Assembly (NCBI GenBank): GCA_963514005.1
Contig: OY740813.1
Location: 8,928,001 to 8,992,000, forward strand
Source of the DNA: Raja brachyura
Taxonomy: Eukaryota
Direction of reading: 5' to 3'
Length of the DNA: 64,000 nt
Positions 14,762 to 47,661 of this stretch are shown here, piece by piece. The stretch's first letter is position 1. Each line of letters starts with the position of its first letter. The notes under the pieces are model-generated. The model did not search any database and was not told where the DNA came from. It saw only the letters and a program-made list of their open reading frames with translations. The position numbers and the translations under genes were made by a program.

Positions 14762-17700
14762 TTTAGCGGAGTTGAGAACGTGAGTTAATTCAATGAACTT
14801 TATTACGAACGGTAAAACAATGAATAACGCAATAAACGATGTTGCATCCACAAGCTCGAATGAATGAACTTGACAAAAAACACGCGAAACACGCTCCCCG
14901 CGCCCGCCCAGCAGGTGCCGCTATAGGACCCCCCCCCCCCCCCCCCCCCCAAGGTACGGAACCGAGCAGGGAGCCGGACACAACAACCAGAATGCGTGGA
15001 CAGCGGAGGCGGGGCGGGAGTAACAATTGGGAGAGGCCGAACAGGGCCAGGAAACTGCAATGGGGCAGAAAGAACGGGGACGACCAGGTCGGGGGAAACA
15101 GGCACAACTGGTGTGGCTGGATCGGCCGGCAGACAACCTCTACGTCAGGGTAGTACGACCACCACCTGTACACGTACAAGTGGGCTGTACACGTCGACGT
15201 GGGCGGGCTTGAGACGACCAATGCAGAGGAACTCCTCCCGGCCACCCACGTCCAAGGTGAAGGTGGCGACACCGGACCGCAGCACCCGGAACGGCCCCTC
15301 GTAGACCCGCTGCAAGGGGGATCGGTGGGCATCCCTGCGAACAAAAACATAAGCACATTTCTGCAGAACTGACAGCACATGCACCACCGGCAACCCATGC
15401 CGCGAAGTAGGAACGGGAGCTAGCCTGCTCACCCGCTCCCGGAGGCTCGCCAGCAACACCGGGGCAGAGTCCACCCACCCGCAAGCGGCAGGGAGAATAT
15501 CCCTAGGCACCCGCAGGGCCGAGCCGCACACCAGCTCGGCGGAGGAAGCGGCCAAGTCTTCTTTGGGTGCAGTGCGAATACCGAGGGGCACCCACGGCAA
15601 CTGGTCCACCCAGTCCGGACCCGTGAGCCAAGCCTTCAACACCGACTTAAGGTGCCGGTGAAAACGTTCAACGAGCCCGTTGGCCTGCGGGTGGTAGGCG
15701 GTGGTATGGTGTAACCGCGCCCCGTATAGCTGAGCCAGGGAAGGGCCCAGGCCGCTACCTGCTTGCAGAGCCCGTGCCAAATGAACTTGGCCTCCACCAG
15801 TGCAGAGGTCGCCCGTTTGGATGGATGGGCCAGCCCGTGGATGGAATCAAAAACCCGGCGACGCCAACTGGTGGGGACGATGGGGCGAGGCATCGCAAAG
15901 GACCACAGTGCCCGAAGCACCACATGGGACCTCAGCCAACTGGAGGCCAGAATTAGCGGTGTGGTAGTCCGCCATTTCTGCGTCCGCAAGCTGTGCCGCA
16001 GCCAGCTCATCGTAGTCCACGCCATGGTCTACGGCCGAAATGGAGGGGAGGGCCGGGCGGGACAAGGCATCAGCAATGGTGTTGAGCTTGCCCGCGACGT
16101 GCTCGACATCCGTGGTGAACTCCAATATGTAAGCGAGGCGCCGCTGCTGGCGGGCGGACCACGGGTCGGAGACCTTACACAAGGCCAAGGTAAGGAGTTT
16201 GCGGTCCGTAAAGGCAGTCAATACATGTCCCTCGAGGAAATATCAAAAGTGCCCGATGGCCAGGTACAACGCCAGGAGCTCTCGGTCAAAGGCGCTGTAG
16301 TTGCACTCAGGGGCTCGCAGTTGATGGCTAAAAAAGGCCAGCGGCTGTCGACGAGCTGCTCCAGGATGCCGCCCACAGTCCGAGGCGTCTACGGTGAGAG
16401 CCGTTGAGGTTGAGGCCCGCGGGTGGACCAACATGGTTTCATTGGCCAGGGCCGCCTTAGCACCCTCGAACACCTCGTCTGCCTCCGAGAACCATTCGAG
16501 CTCCCACGGCTTGCCCACGAGGCACTGGAACAGGGGGCGCATGATGTTGGCAGCTGCCGGCACGAAACGGTGATAGAAATTCACCATGACGACAAACTCC
16601 TGCAACCCCTTTGCCGTGCACGGCCGGCAGAACTGCCGAATGGCCTTGACCTTTGAGGGTAGCGGGGCGCCGCCTTGAGGTGTGATGCTGTGCCCCAGTA
16701 ACGAGATGGAACGGAGGCCGAAATGGCACTTGGTGGGGTTGATTACGAGGCTGTGATCGAGGAGGCGCTGGAAAAGGGTCCGCAGGTGGACGATGTGCTC
16801 ATCCTGCGTGGGGCTTGAACCAGGATTGCATCGAGGTAGATGAACACAAACGGCAGACCCCTCCCGACCCTGTCCATAAGCCTTTGGAATGCCTGCCCGG
16901 TCGTGTATCGGAGGGCCCAGGGTGGGGATGTGATGTACGACCCCGTGTTTGGGGGCTGCCGCGTTGAAACAGGGTGAGGGAAATCGGTGAGGAGGGAGGC
17001 GTAGGGGCCATCGACTTCGGCGAAGACACTGAGCTGTGGGTGGGGGCGGGGGCCGCACATCGACTACGAGGGAAAATGCCCGCAGGAAATTGGCACCCAG
17101 GAGCAGCTGTGTGTCGGCCACGATGAACGTCCAGTCATACAAGCGGGAGTGGAAAGCGAGCGAGGGTCCACCTGCCGATGGTGCTCCTATTAACGGCCGT
17201 GAGCACTGGGCCCCGCTTACCAGCATGGGTGTTGCGTCGTCGACGTGAGGACCCTGACTATAGCCCTGGAGTCGACGACGAAGCGTCTACCAGAGCGATG
17301 GTCGCGGACATAGAGACAGTTGTTTGGGCCGATCGTGATTGCCTCTACAGACGATCGGCCAAGGCATTTCTCTGAAACAAGCAGGGATGATGGCAGCATC
17401 GAGCCTCAGCACCCCAGCGAAGGTGATAGAAGCACTATTTGAGCATACCCCCCCCCCCGGTGCGCTGCTGTGGCTCTGCAATGGAAGCCATGGGTGGGGC
17501 GTTGCCGCGGTCTTGCCGAGGCGAATGGCGCTCTGGAGCGGAAAAATGGTTATTGGCGCCGCCATCTTGTTGTTTCGCCAGCCAGAGTTCGTTGGCCCTT
17601 TCAGCGAGCTGTATGGGGTCGGCAAAATCGGCGCCAGCGAGCATGAGGCGGATGTTGTCCGGCATCTGCTCCAAGAAGGCCTGTTCAAAGAGCAGACACA

Positions 17701-18221
17701 GACGGTGGCCGTCCATCAGGGCAAGCATTTCCGCCATCAGCACGGACAGCTTGCGATCGCCAAACCCGTCCATGTGTAGGAGGCGGGCAGCGCGGTCTCG
17801 GCGGCTGAGCCCGAACGTGCGAAGAAGGAGGGCTTTGAGGCCTTCGTATTTAGCGAGTGCCGATGGGTCTTGCAGGAAAGGCAATAACCGCAAAGCCGTC
17901 CCTGCGTGAGCGCGCCTACGACGTAGAAGTACTTTGTGTCGTCCACCACTATGTCACGGAGGTGGAATTGTGCCTCCACGTGGTCGAACCAAACCTGTGG
18001 CTGTTCGGCCCAGAACACCGGCAGCTTGAGGCCGACGGCATTCTGTTGAGCGTCGGGAACAATGAATAACGCGAGTTTGTAAGACAGCGAAATAAACAAG
18101 TGTGCCGTTCGAACGAATGAACACAACAAAAAACGCGCAAAACCAACTCCCCGCGCCCGCGTGACTGGAGTAGTCAATCCGAGGGTTTGACTACCCCAAG
18201 GCACCAGCAGGTGCCGCTACA
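14762..18221 (-). mobile_element. Gypsy/Ty3 LTR retrotransposon, internally deleted
   Basis: 4-bp TSD ATCT at 14758-14761 and 18222-18225. Termini are T(T)TAGCGG...CCGCTACA. A poly-G PPT (14929-14950 on -) lies next to the 3' LTR at 14762-14925. Confidence 0.9.
15145..18056 (-). pseudogene. Gypsy gag-pol remnants (gag, protease, RT, RNase H, integrase)
   Basis: gag KLPVFWAEQPQVWFDHVEAQF; protease FVVDSRA; RT QAFQRLMD...YLDAILV; RNase H TVDASD and YSAFDRELLA; integrase TTAYHPQANGLVERFHR and YEGPFRV. There are many frameshifts. Confidence 0.9.
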
Positions 18222-21531: not shown

Positions 21532-22169
21532 TATATCACTCTACATCATCATCCATATCTCTAGTTTCCTTTTCCCGTGACTTTCAGTCTGAAGAAGGGT
21601 CTCGACCCGAAACGTCACCCACTCCTTCTCTCCAGAGATACTCCCTGTCCCACTGTTACCCCAGCATTTTGTGTCTATCTTCGGTTTAAACCAGCATCTG
21701 CAATTCCTTCCTACACTCTCACCTGGAGGTTCCCCTTAAAGTTACACATTGACCTGTCTTGGTAATCTATCACAATTTCTTCATTGTTCATCCAGGAAAT
21801 CTCTACCCAATAGTCTCATGAGAGTATTTTCGCAATAAGGGCTGAAGTGGTCTAAGAAGGCTGCTCATCATCATCTTCTCAAGTGTAGTTAGGATGAACA
21901 ATAATTGTTGATCTTGCAAACAAATCCTATATCCTGAAAATGAATTCAGGTCAAGTTTATTATCATATGCACTAGTATGATAAGGTACAGGTACAATGAA
22001 AATCTTGTTTGCAGTACCTTCACAGGCACATAGCCTCACACGGCATACAACATATAAATTCTGCATAAATGTTGCATAAAGAATAAAACAAGACATTTGT
22101 GCAAAACAGAATTCGAAACAAAAGTTCTTAGTAGTGCAAGAAGTGTTCCCAAGTGCTCCATTATATAAG

Positions 22170-22393
22170 TGTTAAAGAAGGAACTGCAGATGCTGGAGAA
22201 TCGAGGGTTACACAAAAAGCTGGAGAAACTCAGCGGGTGCAGCAGCATCTAAGGAGCGAAGGAGATAGGCGACGTTTCGGGTCGAGACCCTTCTTCAGAC
22301 TGAAGAAGGGTCTCGACCCGAAATGTCGCCTATCTCCTTCGCTCCTTAGATGCTGCTGCACCCGCTGAGTTTCTCCAGCTTTTTGTGTAACCC
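22170..22393. mobile_element. Fold-back PLE-end mini-element
   Basis: ~94-bp inverted arms (one mismatch) around A22299. TSD CTCCATTATATAAG at 22156-22169 and 22393-22406. Confidence 0.9.
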
Positions 22394-23157
22394 TCCATTA
22401 TATAAGGTTGGATTAGGGTTGTGCAGGTTGGTTCAAGAATCTGATGGTTGTAGAAAAATAGCTGTTCCTTAAGACGTCTTTAGTGACTTTAGACGTCTGC
22501 ACCTACCCATCGGAAGGTGACATGAGCCTCGTAATGATAGATACCGTCTTCCTTGACGCAGCACTTCATGTAGATGCTTTTATGATTGGGGGGACTGTGC
22601 TCCTCCTGATGGACTGAACTGAGTACTTATTTTAACATGTTTGCATATATTGGTGGCATTTACTATAGATAAATACTATTTTTCATCGACATGCAATTAG
22701 AAAGAGGAGCTGTTGCTATTTTTTTCCCATATGCATTCCAAGGCCACAGAAAATAGCTCCAACCGCCTAGTTGCAACTAGTGGATAACAGACAAGAAATT
22801 AGACTCACCACATCTTAAAAATAGTTGTTTTTCAAATTGAAAAACTGTAACCAGTGGTGCTGCATCCTGTATTGTTCACCATATACATTAATGGTTCGAA
22901 AGAGAAAGTGAGTGGTTTGATGTTAGTGACCTTATCAGGACGAAATAATGAGAACACAGGAATACAATAAATTTAGTAAATTTCCTCCATCTCTGTGCTC
23001 TTCTGATTCCAGTTACTTGCACATCCCTATTTTCTTCCTCTCATCATTAGTGACTCGGCCTTCTATTCTCCTGGCATTCTCTCCCCAAATCTCTCCACCT
23101 CTATATTAATTGTCCTTTATGAGGTGCTACATTTTGACCAGATTAACCTGTCCTAAT

Positions 23158-28218: not shown

Positions 28219-28921
28219 CAGTTCCTGAACCTAAACCTATACTTAAGCCAAGACTTCTGCATTTATTACGGTTCTCCTGTGATTTGTTGCAGTTCTCTTC
28301 AAAATTGGCTATTCACTCCAATTTGGCATTATCCACAATTTTCAGTTGTTTTTGATTCCAAAGTCTAAATCATAAATGTAAGTGATCCCAGCACTACGTT
28401 TTATGGAACAGCAATATCCAATTTCTCCCAACACAGTTTTCTTTACTCATATTCTCTGCTTTAGGTCTTGAAGCCAGTTAGCTATCTTTTATATTAGTTA
28501 TCTCCCAGGCTCTGCATTCTCTGATCTTATTCGTTAGTCTTGAATTAATTTGGGTTGTCTTCATATCATTGCCTATTTCCACTGTCGCTTTGGAAATCCA
28601 TACTGACCATGATTATACTTTTCTTTTCTGTCTGTTTTATTTTCTCCTTTAATGGCAATTCTGTTATTTTTCCTATCCCAGTATTAAATTGACTGGTCTA
28701 TTATTGCCAAGAAATGTCCTCGTCCCCTTCTTCAATATAGATATTATATCAACTATCTGCCAGAGTCAATGTAAGTCAGCAAGCTAAAAGTGATGGGATT
28801 CAGGCAGTACAAATTTGAATGAGATCAAGTTTACATGAAATGGGAGATAAATGATCAACCAAGAGCCAAAAGTCTGGAGATTACAAAGATAATGAGAAAG
28901 AAATAGACACCTCAAGGTTGA

Positions 28922-29447
28922 GGTTGTGTTTAACAAGGGTTGTGTCACACACAAGGGTTTACACACAAGGCTTGTGTTTACCAAGGGCTGTGTTTACCAA
29001 GGGCTGTGTTAGGGTTGTGTTTACCAAGGGCTGTGTTTACCCAGGGCTGTGTTTACCAAGGGCTGTGTTTACCAAGGGCTGTGTTTACCAAGGGCTGTGT
29101 TAGGGTTGTGTTTACCAAGGGCTGTGTTTACCCAGGGCTGTGTTTACCCAGGGCTGTGTTTACCAAGGGCTGTGTTTACCAAGGGTTGTGTTTACCTGGG
29201 GTTGTGTTTACCAAGGGTTGTGTTTACCAAGGGTTGTGTTTACCATGGGTTGTGTTTACCTGGGGTTGTGTTAGGGCTGTGTTTACCAAGGGTTGTGTTT
29301 ACCATGGGTTGTGTTTACCGTGGGTTGTGTTAGGGCTGTGTTTACCAAGGGTTGTGTTTACCAAGGGTTGTGTTTACCAAGAGTTGTGTTTACCATGGGT
29401 TGTGTTTACCATGGGCTGTGTTTACCAAGCACAAACACAACCCTTGG
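28922..29447 (+). repeat. 16-bp minisatellite GGGYTGTGTTTACCAA with interspersed 11-bp units
   Basis: By hand count, ~26 full units and 4 short units (GGGYTGTGTTA), followed by one inverted partial unit. Confidence 0.95.
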
Positions 29448-30699
29448 AAAGAGAAACAGTTAATGTCTCACCTTCAGAAATCTTCGTCGGAACTGGGAAA
29501 GAGAAAGAAACAAATTACTTTTCAATAGCAGATAGAAAAGGATAGAACAAAATCAGTTTCTCTGATAGGGTGAGACCAAATAAATTAATGTTACACTACC
29601 GGTTGGATAAATATGTGTGAACTGGAGGCACATGATGAATCTGCAGCTGCTGCAATCTAGACTAAACGACTGCTGGAGGAGTTCAATGGGTCGAGCAGCG
29701 TCTTACTGTGGTTGGAAAGGCCTGACGCAGGAACAAAACCTGAAACGTCGATCCTTCCCTCCACAGACGCTGCTCGACCTCCAGCATTCGTTCTTTTATG
29801 TACACGTGTATGAACTAAATGGGCCGAATGGCCTGTTGTGGGGGTTATAGATTTTATTTGATGTAAAATGGATTAATCCAACTCATAATCTTCTGAGTGA
29901 AGGTAAGGATTGAATTCATGAGGTGGAAGTTTTCAAATGTTGGCCCTCGCTCGGCGTTACTTTTCTATTAAATTATAAATGAGGTGGGAAGGTTAATTCA
30001 CCCAGAGCCGAGGTGTTTTCCCCCTGCAAATCAGAGGCCAAATGTGCACATTTACAATATTCATCAACATTGCATTTTTATCTCCAGATACCTGCTCTCT
30101 GGCGGTTTTTACTTGGGGGTTTCCTCATGTTTTAAGGAGAATTTTTCTCTTTTTCCGCTAATTATTTGAATTTCAGCGCCTTCGCAGAGGCAGCTCATGA
30201 TGACTTTCCCGCCCTGATCGCGGCACCGGCCGAGCGTCCGCGAGGTCCTAGCGCCCGCCACCGCGTTGACAGTTGGACCCGGGATCCCGCGGGTCCTAGC
30301 AACCACCGGATCGCCCTTCATTCACAGCACTGCGCGCTACATTTATGCTGCACATCTTATCGCACGCTGATGTCTTAAAGCGTCGACCTGATGAGAATCT
30401 GTTGGATTCTTGTGCCTGCTCCTGCATCAACAGCTGTACCGAGCCAGCCTCGTTAACTAGCAGCGGCAATCATGAGTACTAAAACGCTCGGGCGCCTACG
30501 TAATATGTAAAATAATATGTGATTCTGTTTGTAGTTTGTTTGTTTTTTTGCACAAAGTCCGCGAGCATTGCAACGTGTCCTTTCACTGCACATCTCGTAT
30601 GTGTATGTGACGAATAAACTTGACTTGACATTGCATGGTATGGGTGCAAACCCTCAGCAAGTCCATGTTTGGCGACCACTTTATATACCAACCGCAAAC

Positions 30700-32404: not shown

Positions 32405-32458
32405 GGTGTGGGAGATTGCAACCTTCACGTGGTCCACACTGTTTCGACGAATGCAATC
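32405..32458 (+). ncRNA. Minimal HDV/CPEB3-like self-cleaving ribozyme
   Basis: P1 GGTGTGG/CCACACT with a G1-U wobble, P2 GATTGCA/TGCAATC, P3 ACC/GGT, L3 TTCACGT, a tiny P4 around a TTCG loop, and J4/2 A-C-GAA with the candidate catalytic C at 32448. Confidence 0.85.
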
Positions 32459-32543
32459 AACCTGGCGTGCACAAACAGAAGATCAAACAGAACAAGTTGT
32501 CTTACAACTTTAAGCTGTGCACGCCACATGCTAGAAGAAGAAG
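32405..32543 (+). mobile_element. Short non-autonomous retroelement headed by an HDV-like ribozyme, with a (GAA)n tail; copy 1
   Basis: 12-bp TSD ACTGAATAC(C/T)TT at 32393-32404 and 32544-32555. It ends in GTGCACGCCACATGCTAGAAGAAGAAG. A homologous copy lies at 45584-45724. Confidence 0.85.
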
Positions 32544-41537: not shown

Positions 41538-42185
41538 TGGATCTTTTTATAATTATGTGCAGAATTTGTCATTATAATTTTAAACTCAATTCCACTAATC
41601 AGTCTAATGTTCTACTAGAAAGCAAACGTAACTAGTGAATTTGTCTTATGTTGGGGCAGGATATTATTATTTGCCCCTGGTTTGATCAAGGCTTCCTCAG
41701 GTTTATACAGGTGAAGTTCTAAGATGCATCATCAGTTATCTGGGTGCACAACGAGCCCTTATCCTGTTCAGTGTTGTCCACATGCTCCAGGGCATATTGA
41801 AGCTCAGTTGCCCAGGTGTTGAATAAGTTGGAAGGTATTTGTAAAGAGATTTTCTGGTGAAGCTTTCCTCCAGTTGTTGTGGAGCATGAAGTGCCCTCAA
41901 AAGGGTTTCTGAACCTGTGACATGTGTTCATCTGGCAGGTTCTTGAAGGTTGCTGTGAAAGGAAGGCCTGAATAGCTTTTTCTATGACTTGCGACATTGT
42001 TCATCTCATCTCATAGGAGACAACAACCTGGCTGCTCAACACCTGGCTTGAGATCCAACTATTCCTTTGGTTTATGTTTCATTCACAAGAGGAAGATAGG
42101 AGAGTGATATTTGAAAGAACTACTAATCACTGATCTGGAACTTATTTACATGCCTTATCTTTGGTGGTAGGGAGGGAAATTTAAT

Positions 42186-42409
42186 TGTTAAAGAAGGAAC
42201 TGCAGATGCTGGAGAATCGAGGGTTACACAAAAAGCTGGAGAAACTCAGCGGGTGCAGCAGCATCTAAGGAGCGAAGGAGATAGGCGACGTTTCGGGTCG
42301 AGACCCTTCTTCAGACTGAAGAAGGGTCTCGACCCGAAACGTCGCCTATCTCCTTCGCTCCTTAGATGCTGCTGCACCCGCTGAGTTTCTCCAGCTTTTT
42401 GTGTAACCC
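42186..42409. mobile_element. Fold-back PLE-end mini-element
   Basis: Perfect 94-bp inverted arms around A42315. TSD AGGGAAATTTAATTGT at 42173-42188 and 42410-42425, partly overlapping the element end. Confidence 0.9.
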
Positions 42410-43790: not shown

Positions 43791-43973
43791 CAAGGGAGAA
43801 TTAATGGATTGGTGGGCTTGTATGGGAAATAGTCCATTGCAGGGGGATAGGGAAATGAGAAGAAGGAGAATTGGACTAATAGAACACCCTTCGGCTGACA
43901 ATATCTGTGCTGAACATGAGGACAAATTAAATTAATTGTCTGCCTACACTTGAACTAAATACCTTCTTCTTCG

Positions 43974-45221
43974 GACCTAGCGGAGTTGGTCCTTACCCTA
44001 AACAACTTCTCTTTTGACTCCTCCCATTTCCTCCAAACACAAGGCGTAGCTATGGGCACACGCATGGGCCCTAGCTACGCCTGCCTCTTTGTCGGGTACG
44101 TCGAACAATCTTTGTTCTCGGCGTACCAGGGCCCTACCCCCGACCTTTACCTCCGTTACATTGACGACTGCTTTGGTGTCACCTCCTGCACCCACGCAGA
44201 ACTGACTGACTTTATCCATTTCACCACCAACTTCCATCCGGCACTCAAATATACTTGGACCATTTCCGACATTTCCCTACCATTCCTTGACCTCACCATC
44301 TCTATTGCAGGTGACACACTCCTGACTGACATCCACTACAAACCAACTGACTCCCACAGCTACCTGGACTACTCTTCCTCCCACCCTGCTTCCTGTAAGG
44401 ACTCCATCCCCTATTCCCAATTCCTCCGACTACGCCGCATCTGCTCCCAGGATGACTTGTTCCACACCAGGTCATCGCAAATGTCCTCGTTCTTCAGAGA
44501 ACGGGGTTTCCCCTCCCCCACTATCGATGAGGCTCGCACCAGGGTCTCCTCCATACCCCGCAACACTGCCCTCTCTCCCCATTCCCCCACTCACAACAAG
44601 GGCCGAGTCCCCCTGGTCCTCACCTTTCACCCCACCAGCCAGCGCATACAACAGATAGTCCTCCGCCAGTTTCGCCACCTCCAACGTGACCCCTCCACTC
44701 GCCACATCTTCCCATCTCCCCCCCTGTCTGCCTTCCGCAAAGACCGCTCCCTCCGCAACTCCCTCGTCAATTCTTCCCTTCCCTCCCGCTCCACTCCTTC
44801 CCCGGGCACTTTCCCTTGCAACCGCAAGAGATGCTACACTTGTCCCTTCACCTCCCCCATCCACTCCTTTCAGGGACCCAAGCAGTCATTCCAAGTCCGA
44901 CAGAGGTTCACCTGCACCTCCTCCAACCTCGTCTACTGCATCCGTTGCTCCAGATGCCAGCTAATCTACATTGGTGAGACCAAGCGGAGGCTAGGCGATC
45001 GTTTCGCCGAACACCTCCGCTCGGTCCGCAATAACCAACCCGACCTCCCGGTGGCTCAGCACTTCAACTCCCCCTCCCACTCCGTATCCGACCTCTCTGT
45101 CCTGGGCCTCCTCCATGGCCAGAGTGAACAACACCGCAAGTTTGAGGAACAACATCTCATATTCCGCTTGGGGAGTTTGCATCCTCTGGGCTTAAACATT
45201 GAATTTTCTCAATTCTGTTAA
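43974..45221 (+). CDS. PLE reverse transcriptase (C-terminal part) plus GIY-YIG endonuclease; no genuine start codon
   Basis: GVAMGTRMGPSYA, YLRYIDD, LPFLD, Cys-rich linker CNRKRCYTC, and VYCIRCSRCQLIYIGETKR...RFAEH. The frame is open from the truncation point to the stop. Confidence 0.9.
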   Translation, partial: DLAELVLTLNNFSFDSSHFLQTQGVAMGTRMGPSYACLFVGYVEQSLFSAYQGPTPDLYLRYIDDCFGVTSCTHAELTDFIHFTTNFHPALKYTWTISDISLPFLDLTISIAGDTLLTDIHYKPTDSHSYLDYSSSHPASCKDSIPYSQFLRLRRICSQDDLFHTRSSQMSSFFRERGFPSPTIDEARTRVSSIPRNTALSPHSPTHNKGRVPLVLTFHPTSQRIQQIVLRQFRHLQRDPSTRHIFPSPPLSAFRKDRSLRNSLVNSSLPSRSTPSPGTFPCNRKRCYTCPFTSPIHSFQGPKQSFQVRQRFTCTSSNLVYCIRCSRCQLIYIGETKRRLGDRFAEHLRSVRNNQPDLPVAQHFNSPSHSVSDLSVLGLLHGQSEQHRKFEEQHLIFRLGSLHPLGLNIEFSQFC

Positions 45222-45450
45222 CCCAGACTGCTCCCTTCCCCCCCCCCCCCCACCTCTCCCTCGGGCCCTGACATTCCTTCTCCATCTCCCCCCCCCCCAA
45301 GTCGCACTAGCTTCTCATTTTCACACCAGAAACAGCTTACAATGGCTTGCTCCCTTATCACCAATACTTTTTTGCATATCTTTCACTCATTGTTCTTGCT
45401 TTATCTCTCCATATCACTGTTTATATCTCTCGTTTCCCTGATCCCTGACC

Positions 45451-45485
45451 AGTCTGAAGAAGGGTCTCGACCCGAAACGTCGCCT
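45451..45485 (+). ncRNA. Minimal type I hammerhead-like motif in the PLE pLTR
   Basis: CTGAAGA-A-GGGT(CTCG)ACCC-GAAAC-GTC. Stem III has no loop and is the palindrome ACGT, the arrangement of dimer-requiring PLE hammerheads. Stem I is weak. Confidence 0.65.
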
Positions 45486-45583
45486 ATCTCCTTCGCTCCT
45501 TAGATGCTGCTGCACCCGCTGAGTTTCTCCAGCTTTTTGTGTAACCCTCGATTCTCCAGCATCTGCAGTTCCTTCTTTAACAC

Positions 45584-45724
45584 CTTCTTCTTCTTCTTTT
45601 GTGTGGCGTGCACAGCCTAAAGTTGTTGGACAACTTGTTCCATTTGATCTTCCGTTTGTGCACGTCGAGTTGATTGCATTAGTCGAAACAGGGCGGACCA
45701 CGTGAAGGTTGCAATCTTCCACGC
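45584..45724 (-). mobile_element. HDV-like ribozyme-headed short retroelement, copy 2; its tail is interrupted by the Penelope insertion
   Basis: The reverse complement reads GCGTGGAAGATTGCAACCTTCACGTGGTCCGCCCTGTTTCGACTAATGCAATC...GTGCACGCCACACAAAAGAAGAAG. TSD AACTAAATAC(CTTC) at 43953-43966 and 45725-45738 encloses both this element and the PLE. Confidence 0.85.
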
Positions 45725-46394
45725 AACTAAATACCTTCATTCCTTGCATATCCATGTGCTTATTAAAAAACCTCTTAAATCCAAGTTGGTCCAACCTCTT
45801 TATGGGTAATACCATCTAATCCAGGCAGCATTCTGGTGAATCTCTTCTGCACTCTCTCCAAAGCATCCACATTCATCCTGCAAAACTGCAGATATCAATG
45901 CGATTGCCCCCTATAGACCAGTTGAGACCTATGTCGTTATACTTATTACTTAAGATGTCTTTGAATTGAATTGAATACTTTATTGTCACATGTGACAAGT
46001 TAGTGGAATTTTTTGCTTGCATAGCCAAGGTAGTCGCCCATAAAGGGTGCTTACAAAGTTACAAAATCTGGAAGCAAGAAATTTAAAATGAAACAAAATC
46101 CGCCTCCAAACTAGTTTCTCTGAATATTTTCCAATTGTGGAGATGATTTCTGATTATTTAACACGAGAACAGAAAAGTGTACTTTAATAAAATTTGGAAA
46201 AAATACAATAAATATTTTTTCTTCCAATTAAACTAGACGCTTTAAGTAATGAGTGTCAAATGTTATGAAGGGTTCTGATAAATGCTGGTTATTCTATTTG
46301 CGAGACTAATTTAGGAGTGAAGCTTTTCCTTGCTGAGCTGGTGCTCTGAGTTGCAGTGTAGCTATAGAAGGATTTTTTTTTTGCCTTCCCCAGC

Positions 46395-46669: not shown

Positions 46670-46809
46670 GGCACTCAGAAAAAGGCGAAGGTGCTCTGCG
46701 AGCTCTGCTCCCCTCCCGCCCCAGTACAGGACTGGATTTTTGTTTGTGTGTGGGGGCAACTAACAAAAAGTGGCTTGTTCATTGAGTGGAGAACCAACGG
46801 CGGTCGGTC

Positions 46810-47661
46810 ATGATGGATTGTGCCGTCAATGCACAAAGCTTGATCACAATCTCTCTCCGCAAAATCCACAATTCGAGAACTCAGAGAGGAGGTATCAAGC
46901 TTCACAAGAACCTCCTGGTCTCCTATGTGCTCCGAAACGCCCGGCAAGTCTACATGAGCGAGAAGTACGCCGAGATCTACGGCATGCACCAGTACGAGGA
47001 GGTACACGACATGTTAGACATCTCGGGAGAGATCCAAGGCAATCACCCGCTCGAAGTGGTGGAAGAGATGGTGGAGGCAAACAGCGGCCAAGGGGAGAAC
47101 GTCTGCAGCCCGCTCGACCACCAGCCCGGCCACCTGCACACTCAACTCAGTAAGGACGCGGAACCTGAGCACCCTCTTTACCGGCTCTCTTGCTCGGCTT
47201 CGTACCCAGGCACGAACTATGAGCCGTCGGGAGGTGGTGGCGTTGGTGGGACCCACTGTACCAAGACCACAGTGCTGGATCTGGACACTCATACGGTCAC
47301 CACGGTGGACAACGGCTACCTCCAAGACTGCGCCTGTTGTTGCGCCAGCAGTCCCGGCGGCAGGAAGCGCAAGTCGGACTCTGGCAGTGGCTTTTACCCA
47401 AACGAAGCAGAAGACTTTTCTTCGCCGGTTAAGCGAGTCCGGTTCGAAGACTACTCTAGCTCCGGGCAAACCTTGGACTGCACGGACCCTTCCAACATCT
47501 CCAACCTTATCTCCATCTTCGGCTCTGGCTTCTCCGGCTTGGTGAGCCGGGCGGACTCGGAGCAGTTGCTTCAGTCAGAAGTCAAACAGAACGGGCAATT
47601 GTGCAGCAAACAGGCGCTCGCCAGTTTAGGGGCATGGACTAGAGCGATCGTGGCTTTCTGA
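46810..47661 (+). CDS. IER5L: Immediate early response 5-like protein (IER family), single exon, 283 aa
   Basis: The N-terminus MMDCAVNAQSLITISLRKIHNSRTQRGGIKLHKNLLVSYVLRNARQVY and the C-terminus SNLISIFGSGFSGL...KQALASLGAWTRAIVAF match the IER5L family. The central TTVLDLDTH motif and an RKRK NLS are present. The ORF track starts at a GTG (46786), but the first ATG is at 46810 (second at 46813). The region is CpG-rich. Confidence 0.93.
   Translation: MMDCAVNAQSLITISLRKIHNSRTQRGGIKLHKNLLVSYVLRNARQVYMSEKYAEIYGMHQYEEVHDMLDISGEIQGNHPLEVVEEMVEANSGQGENVCSPLDHQPGHLHTQLSKDAEPEHPLYRLSCSASYPGTNYEPSGGGGVGGTHCTKTTVLDLDTHTVTTVDNGYLQDCACCCASSPGGRKRKSDSGSGFYPNEAEDFSSPVKRVRFEDYSSSGQTLDCTDPSNISNLISIFGSGFSGLVSRADSEQLLQSEVKQNGQLCSKQALASLGAWTRAIVAF

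What the first reader, a model, noticed from the sequence alone, without database searches (positions are those of the whole stretch)
45672..45724. Second ribozyme copy varies at positions the HDV fold tolerates
Seen: the minus-strand copy keeps P2, P3, L3, the TTCG loop and the candidate catalytic C unchanged. J4/2 changes from CGAA to CTAA, and genomic and antigenomic HDV differ in the same way. J1/2 changes from GA to AA. P1 becomes GCGTGG/CCGCCCT, so one T-A pair becomes T-G, one position is a C-C mismatch and G1 is missing. The 3' hairpin AAGTTGT/ACAACTT keeps its stem (one mismatch) while the loop differs. Inference: the family is constrained on structure rather than sequence, and this copy may be impaired.
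Basis: partly seen in the sequence, partly recalled or inferred. Interest (0 to 1): 0.7.

Follow-up and report, generated by a model that had tools for sequence, protein, structure and literature searches.

The report
Minimal ribozyme heading a Vingi mini-retrotransposon
This is one damaged copy of a 140-base jumping element, present in thousands of copies and made from the two ends of a longer retrotransposon; its front end is predicted to be a very small self-cutting RNA of a shape so far described mainly from gut phages.

Summary
The sequence description is essentially right; the interpretation needs correcting. The 53 bases are the head of a ~137-nt non-autonomous retroposon with at least 7,695 copies, a (GAA)n tail and 8-15-nt target duplications. 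It joins the first ~77 and last ~40 nt of a Vingi-type LINE found in this genome. The head fits a P4-less HDV-like ribozyme laid out like tRNA-adjacent phage theta ribozymes, which show full P1/P2 covariation.

Copy 2's AA, CTAA and T·G are not its own: 1,320 copies carry that exact head, and CTAA is the parent's state. Only the lost G1 (a 5' truncation at insertion) and the C-C mismatch are private, so copy 2 is probably inactive. Private changes across copies are neutral and uncompensated; structural constraint shows only between source lineages and families.

Two points were not found in the papers searched. Other Vingi families here also begin with HDV-like folds. Six families show a predicted 5'UTR-3'-end helix with different sequences (cognate pairing ranks 1-2 of 720; individually weak in three). 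Catalysis was not tested.

The parts
45725..45738 (-). 5' target-site duplication (14 nt); its last T occupies the G1 position
   Evidence: exact match occurs twice in the window, 45738-45725 and 43966-43953
45672..45724 (-). Head of copy 2: predicted P4-less HDV-like ribozyme, subfamily B, lacking G1 and with G3 changed to C
45657..45664 (-). 5' arm (CGTGCACA) of the predicted end-to-end helix, inherited from the LINE 5'UTR
45620..45636 (-). 7-bp hairpin formed across the deletion junction; absent from the parent LINE and from two other deletion derivatives
45601..45627 (-). LINE-derived 3' end: last codons of the ORF, TAG stop (45619-45617), 3' arm of the helix (TGTGCACG, 45614-45607)
45588..45600 (-). 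(GAA)n tail
   Evidence: same tail in the Vingi-type families
43973..45581 (+). Later Penelope-like insertion into the tail/TSD (420-aa frame 43959-45221), flanked by a 12-nt duplication
   Evidence: (GIY-YIG E 4e-4, below the curated cut-off); the Penelope label rests on recalled motifs
43953..43966 (-). 3' target-site duplication of copy 2, displaced by 1.6 kb
32405..32543 (+). Copy 1 (subfamily A), fold intact, with a private compensated pair (T3-A) and a 12-nt TSD with one mismatch

Best explanation
The finding is the 5' head of one 5'-truncated copy of a ~137-nt non-autonomous retroposon made by internal deletion of a Vingi-type LINE, and the head likely folds into a minimal (P4-less) HDV-like ribozyme that would cut the element's RNA out of a host read-through transcript just before G1. 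Shown: copy number, boundaries, tail, target duplications, parent LINE, subfamilies, neutral decay of copies. Inferred: a source copy is transcribed as part of a host RNA; the ribozyme cleaves 5' of G1; a short helix pairs the 5'UTR with the 3' end; a Vingi protein supplied in trans binds the 3' end and inserts the RNA by target-primed reverse transcription. Only source copies are selected, so amplified variants keep the fold while each inserted copy decays. Copy 2 lost G1 at insertion, carries one private P1 change, later received a Penelope-like insertion in its tail, and is probably inactive.
For: 7,695 exact core matches; 1,320 exact subfamily-B heads. Exact TSD of 8-15 nt in 128 of 195 sampled copies, ending within 1 nt of G1 in 93 of those 128. 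Contigs from four public runs leave the element at G1 (46, 10, 29 and 1 contigs). Parent LINE: 3' ends share the last ~40 nt at 83-100%; eight copies carry the same head in front of the ORF; endonuclease and RT, no RNase H hit in the three stop-free frames scanned; tree groups it at 99/99 with RNase-H-less single-ORF elements, apart from the RNase-H-bearing pair and CR1/Rex1-like rows. 18 of 50 phage/metagenome loci found by core patterns fold the same way with 13 different P1 pairings, all CTAA, 17 of 18 at a tRNA 3' end. At the J4/2 CpG the tolerated half-change is 848 copies, the catalytic-C half-change 356. Two further independent deletion derivatives keep head, both helix arms and tail.
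Against: No cleavage or RNA 5'-end data: all runs laid were contigs and RNA status is mostly a guess. No Rfam match, even at E<=10. P1.1 has one Watson-Crick pair (TC/GT), whereas every published theta row I read has two. Pseudoknot-free folding recovers P2 and the 3' domain but not the full fold, and whole-element z-scores are only 0.29 to -1.5. Within-family evidence for constraint rests on three or four amplified events, and the 848:356 excess may be a single lineage. No intact parent ORF was found, and subfamily B (median pairwise identity 0.943, 22 copies) looks younger than the parent copies sampled (0.911, 10 copies), so its actual driver is unidentified.
Confidence: 0.8

Rival explanations
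1. The head matters as an internal promoter or as a protective or protein-binding fold, and cleavage is dispensable or slow; transcription start, not cutting, sets the 5' end at G1.
For: A G1 boundary is predicted by both models. Pr77 of L1Tc is both promoter and ribozyme (PMC3383444, abstract in listing). The R2 fold gives cap-like protection (PMC13708176 passage). P1.1 has one pair only. Sequence, not only structure, is almost invariant inside the family.
Against: No amplified lineage without the catalytic C was seen: 566 losses vs 7,695, mostly CpG decay. Other Vingi families keep the fold with different stem sequences and, in V1-V4, a C at J4/2 (the single V7 head has G there). The same one-pair variant sits at phage tRNA ends.
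Confidence: 0.14
2. The fold is a passive relic of the parent LINE; the short element needs only its 3' end, and the tolerated pattern among subfamilies is chance.
For: Copies decay neutrally. 5'-truncated copies without a head exist. Only 3-4 amplified changes fall in the head; by my hand estimate the chance that all are tolerated is about 0.02-0.04.
Against: Three independent deletion lineages all keep the whole head. The 3' half carries many more amplified changes than the head. A variant lacking half of the ribozyme spread only as a passenger inside another repeat, without tail.
Confidence: 0.05
3. Copy 2 has been kept by the host as a regulatory ribozyme for the IER-family gene about 1 kb away.
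For: IER-family ORF at 46786-47658 (+), with copy 2 upstream on the opposite strand.
Against: The copy lacks G1, has a C-C mismatch, is one of thousands and is interrupted by a later insertion.
Confidence: 0.01

Closest known systems
Bipartite non-autonomous LINEs / SIDEs: NARTc, RIME, R2 SIDE, Vingi-1_EE derivatives (PMC5786205 passages and section 23; PMC3414825 abstract; PMC4035085 passages)
   Same: 5' end plus 3' end of a LINE joined by internal deletion; HDV-like ribozyme at the 5' end in NARTc and R2 SIDE; mobilised in trans.
   Different: About 137 nt, thousands of dispersed copies in a 2.7-Gb genome, ribozyme without P4; Vingi is not among the six ribozyme-bearing clades listed in PMC5786205.
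Theta ribozymes / minimal HDV-like ribozymes (PMC10879173, sections 7 and 13, passages, parts of supplementary files 5 and 6)
   Same: No P4; 6-7-bp P1 from G1; 7-bp P2; ACC/GGT P3; L3 of the TyCnCGy type; short L4 (TTTCGA is common in their list); J4/2 CTAA or CGAA. A 19-nt stretch is identical to two tRNA-adjacent metagenome loci.
   Different: Not next to a tRNA; eukaryotic retrotransposon rather than phage; one-pair P1.1. The paper reports about 99% of hits in Caudoviricetes after searching bacterial, human, mouse and protist genomes. Convergence is more likely than transfer, since sister Vingi families here have P4-bearing versions (inference).
Vingi clade LINEs (definition from PMC13708176 passages)
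   Same: Single ORF, APE endonuclease plus RT, no RNase H, sister to RNase-H-bearing Ingi; donors for gene writing use both UTRs.
   Different: The review mentions ribozymes only for R2 in the passages read; it describes no 5'-3' UTR helix in those passages.

Membership tests
HDV-like ribozyme | Nested double pseudoknot: P1, P2, P3 paired | tested here: met
   Subfamily heads, parent head and copy 1 pair fully or with one mismatch; 10 of 17 pairs covary once three phage rows are added, rows picked because they fold. Copy 2 fails two P1 pairs.
HDV-like ribozyme | G1 paired with U/C at the cleavage site | tested here: met
   G1 in 175 of 195 sampled copies; not met in copy 2
HDV-like ribozyme | Catalytic C first in J4/2 and U...G in L3 | tested here: met
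   7,695 with C vs 566 without; descriptor features from PMC6326823 passages
HDV-like ribozyme | P1.1 of two pairs | tested here: inconclusive
   One C-G pair only; the same form in 15 of 18 folded phage loci; a one-pair P1.1 in CPEB3 is recalled, not checked
HDV-like ribozyme | Self-cleavage 5' of G1, lost on C-to-U | not testable with these tools
   needs an in vitro assay
Theta ribozyme | No P4, short L4 | tested here: met
   7 nt between P1' and the catalytic C
Theta ribozyme | Published descriptor (two-pair P1.1 in all rows read) | tested here: not met
   the descriptor itself is a figure I could not read
Theta ribozyme | Cleavage site at a tRNA 3' end in a phage | tested here: not met
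   no tRNA in L033 or L463; flanks differ between copies
Bipartite non-autonomous LINE (SIDE) | 5' part matches a LINE 5' end and 3' part the same LINE's 3' end, no ORF | tested here: met
Bipartite non-autonomous LINE (SIDE) | Dispersed copies with tail and variable TSD | tested here: met
Vingi clade (parent) | Single ORF, APE plus RT, no RNase H | tested here: met
   parent copies are broken, so three stop-free frames and database relatives were scanned
Vingi clade (parent) | Groups with named Vingi reference elements | not testable with these tools
   no named Vingi sequence was available; the tree uses unnamed proteins and has no RTE row
SINE with small-RNA head | tRNA, 5S or 7SL-derived head | tested here: not met
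   head is LINE-derived; no Rfam or ARAGORN hit

The most novel reading that the evidence does not exclude
Vingi retrotransposons as a clade use a two-part RNA device: an HDV-like ribozyme that makes the 5' end, followed at once by a short helix that closes the 5'UTR onto the 3' end beside the tail. One lineage shrank the ribozyme to the theta-type minimum independently of phages. Ribozyme, helix and tail are all that an RNA needs to be copied, which would explain why Vingi spawns bipartite mini-elements and would define a donor of about 125 nt for Vingi gene writers.
Probability: 0.45. Interest if true: 0.72.

Novelty: new variant of a known kind. Interest (0 to 1): 0.5.

Why it matters
The single copy is ordinary debris. 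The family is of interest on three counts. It would move P4-less HDV-like ribozymes, reported almost only from gut phages, into a vertebrate-scale genome at thousands of copies. It would add Vingi to the ribozyme-bearing LINE clades. It offers a testable answer to a question left open in PMC5786205, why only a few LINE clades give bipartite derivatives: the two ends may have to pair. Vingi elements are in use as RNA-only gene writers (PMC13708176), so a minimal cis-element has practical value. More than a thousand identical, probably active heads could also cut host pre-mRNAs where they lie in sense orientation (untested).

Tried and rejected
Parent search: five exclusion-pattern searches and one guessed junction pattern (0 hits) found no parent; it was found through protein searches after a chance Vingi-like fragment in L261. 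Compensatory C5-G subfamily: rejected, partner G 74 and A 24 of 100 listed vs background 80 and 18, p=0.38. Special mechanism for G3-to-C: rejected, 13 of 100 listed G3 changes are C, 98 of 100 leave the partner unchanged. Circular or double-headed form suggested by a joint: one nested locus in this genome. A ribozyme-less amplified subfamily (about 27 of 77 rows, counted by eye): a passenger in another repeat. The AAGTTGT hairpin as the LINE's recognition signal: absent from parent and two derivatives. First helix test with 60-nt windows and RNAduplex: cognate best in only 2 of 5 families; second test had the V1 window overlapping P2 and was redone. Rfam, phage blastn and a Vingi search of viral contigs (one weak 23% hit) gave nothing useful. 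Earlier scan findings: none returned. Ruminski 2011, Webb 2009 and Webb and Luptak 2011 were not held.

Full report
Observation. The other copy lies at 32405-32543 on the plus strand; the two are 88% alike over 137 nt. Rfam has no match in the window at gathering score, and none on the head at E up to 10.

It is a dispersed retroposon. The window lies in a 2.70-Gb assembly. A core pattern has 7,695 exact matches and 0 for the reversed control; 566 more lack the candidate catalytic C. Copies are about 137 nt, start at GGGGTGG and end in (GAA)n. Of 195 sampled copies with an ungapped head, 128 have an exact target duplication of 8-15 nt; it ends at G1 in 51 and within 1 nt in 93; 67 gave none. 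This sample is pooled from best-hit and pattern searches and is not random. Twenty-three public runs from eight coded organisms, a metagenome and unlabelled samples hold the element; contigs of the four runs laid leave it at G1. Contigs cannot show RNA ends.

Copy 2. Its 14-nt target duplication occurs at 45738-45725 and again at 43966-43953, pushed away by a 1.6-kb Penelope-like insertion with its own 12-nt duplication. The T at position 1 belongs to the target, so G1 was lost at insertion (or the first bases are untemplated). AA, CCGCCCT and CTAA mark subfamily B: 68, 69 and 74 of 76 copies classed by their 3' half carry them, and 1,320 copies have that exact 54-nt head with G1 and G3 intact. 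The private defects are G1 and G3-to-C, an ordinary change (13 of 100 listed among 217 copies altered at G3).

The parent. A Vingi-like fragment turned up by chance in L261. Protein searches showed at least seven related families, here V1-V7; for those with 3' ends read, all end in GAA repeats. The short element read in the frame closing at its TAG gives a Vingi-like C-terminus, which led to V6. V6 shares the last ~40 nt, and eight V6 copies carry the same head, 84-95% alike over the 43-77 nt matched, in front of the ORF. All eight have CTAA and the A partner of T5, so CTAA and T-A are ancestral, and CGAA, T·G and AA derived. Stop-free V6 frames match endonuclease and RT families and no RNase H. 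The RT tree puts V6 among RNase-H-less single-ORF elements at 99/99, apart from two RNase-H-bearing proteins and CR1, Rex1-like and L1-like rows (V2 and V5 left out as too short, no RTE row, outgroup labels from recalled motifs). The name Vingi rests on that architecture as defined in PMC13708176 (passages) and on recalled motifs, not on a named reference. Among 20 of 37 loci with the parent-type linker, most are further short deletion derivatives of two junction types (about 9 and 5 by eye); they keep head, both helix arms and tail but not the AAGTTGT hairpin.

The fold. A metagenome scan with 19 nt of the core returned two loci, both directly behind a tRNA. A looser pattern in viral contigs returned 48. 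Of these 50, 18 fold with a full 7-bp P1 from G1 and P2 of at least 4 bp, in 13 different P1 pairings; all have CTAA; 17 have a tRNA call ending at about G1. The other 32 were not parsed, partly because the parser misses a bulged P2. These match the theta ribozymes of PMC10879173 (sections 7 and 13, passages, parts of supplementary files 5 and 6 read). That paper shows cleavage in vitro and loss on C-to-U, and finds about 99% of minimal ribozymes in phages. All published rows I saw have a two-pair P1.1; this element and 15 of the 18 phage loci have one pair. With three phage rows added, 10 of 17 pairs covary and slid controls collapse (rows chosen because they fold). V1 and V4 heads parse as P4-bearing HDV-like folds with different stems, and V7 parses with G at the catalytic position. 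V2 (5'-truncated) and V3 were read by eye, because the parser failed on them.

What is constrained. Among copies, nothing: stems change 81/1798 and unpaired sites 23/806 in 62 copies picked by their 3' end (p=0.05, more in stems). Single changes break pairs 94 times and keep them by wobble 33 times; 0 of 2 doubles compensate (positions 1-3 and the wobble pair excluded). T5-to-C shows no partner preference. Among source lineages, the amplified variants in the head fall at J1/2, the P1 wobble and the free J4/2 base. At the J4/2 CpG, where decay should be symmetric, CAAA has 848 copies and TGAA 356; this may be a single amplified lineage.

An end-to-end helix. In the short element the 5'UTR stretch after P2 pairs with the 3' end over 8 bp (B, parent) to 11 bp (A, C); 3'-half z-scores are -1.5, -3.5 and -4.2. 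I noted the same idea for four other families before reading V7, and V7 then showed an 8-bp match. With corrected windows the cognate assignment of six 5' ends to six 3' ends ranks 1 of 720 in six settings and 2 of 720 in two. Against this: windows were chosen after seeing five families; single-family shuffles are 10, 15 and 21 of 500 for V3, V6, V7 but 37, 153 and 218 for V2, V1, V4; V2 and V7 rest on one 5' copy each; a first test with wider windows favoured the cognate in only 2 of 5; and in V1 the best complement is the P2 strand itself. Recurrent inversion could also create such complements.

Mechanism. Shown: origin by internal deletion, insertion with target duplications, subfamily structure, neutral decay. 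Inferred from known SIDE and L1Tc biology (PMC3414825 abstract; PMC4035085 passages; PMC6765202 passages): release from a host co-transcript by self-cleavage, then target-primed reverse transcription by a Vingi protein in trans. The driver of young subfamily B is unknown; no intact V6 ORF was found, and V3 copies are about as young (0.947).

Novelty. Ribozyme-headed bipartite elements are known (NARTc, RIME, R2 SIDE), and Vingi deletion derivatives are known (PMC5786205, passages and section 23). That paper lists six ribozyme-bearing clades without Vingi and leaves open why few clades give bipartite forms. Ten searches of the open library showed no report of a P4-less ribozyme in a vertebrate retroposon, a Vingi ribozyme or a Vingi end-to-end helix; I saw listings for most hits and read parts of eight papers. 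Ruminski 2011, Webb 2009, Webb and Luptak 2011, Kojima 2011, Riccitelli 2014, Repbase and patents were not readable and may already cover part of this; a short sea-urchin ribozyme, drz-Spur-3, is recalled as a eukaryotic precedent. One supplementary file of PMC10879173 and its descriptor figure were unreadable. That the host is a cartilaginous fish is my guess from recalled repeats, not a result.

Verdict. Observation confirmed; interpretation partly supported; the copy is ordinary, the family a new variant of a known kind. Interest 0.5.

Noticed in passing
L174-L175, L181, L189-L191, L198, L200, L210, L212-L215, L217, L179: Phage-type tRNA-adjacent minimal HDV-like ribozymes with a one-pair P1.1 (TC/GT); none of the published theta rows I read has this form, so the published descriptor may miss a subclass.
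   Followed up: partly
L438, L416, L422, L454, L457, L469, L539, L541 (V6) and L491 (V7): Many LINE copies carry the 5' head inverted next to a 5'-truncated ORF, often ending at or soon after the helix arm, as expected from twin priming.
   Followed up: partly
L312, L270 and other V1 copies: The V1 3'UTR repeats the 7-nt 5' strand of its own ribozyme P2 in 6 of 6 copies, so the 3' end could compete with the ribozyme fold.
   Followed up: partly
L317-L320, L322, L332, L334, L335, L338-L340, L342: A tail-less fragment of the element, mostly with half of the ribozyme deleted, is carried inside another, unidentified repeat with a shared upstream sequence and a C-rich downstream stretch.
   Followed up: partly
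window 46786-47658 (+): Intronless IER-family ORF (PF05760, E 5e-91) about 1.06 kb from the head of copy 2, on the opposite strand.
   Followed up: no
window 15148-18216 (-): Remnant of an LTR retroelement with RNase H and integrase family hits in separate frames.
   Followed up: no
window 22163-22399 and 42179-42409: Near-perfect 200-nt palindromes made of the same repeat that forms one end of the Penelope-like insertion at 45450-45583; similar units sit inside or beside other copies of the short element (L066, L081).
   Followed up: no
window 28920-29458: Tandem array with a 16-nt period.
   Followed up: no
L440:1502-1638 and L176: Short copies nested inside the parent LINE's 5' region (L440) and inside another short copy (L176).
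   Followed up: yes
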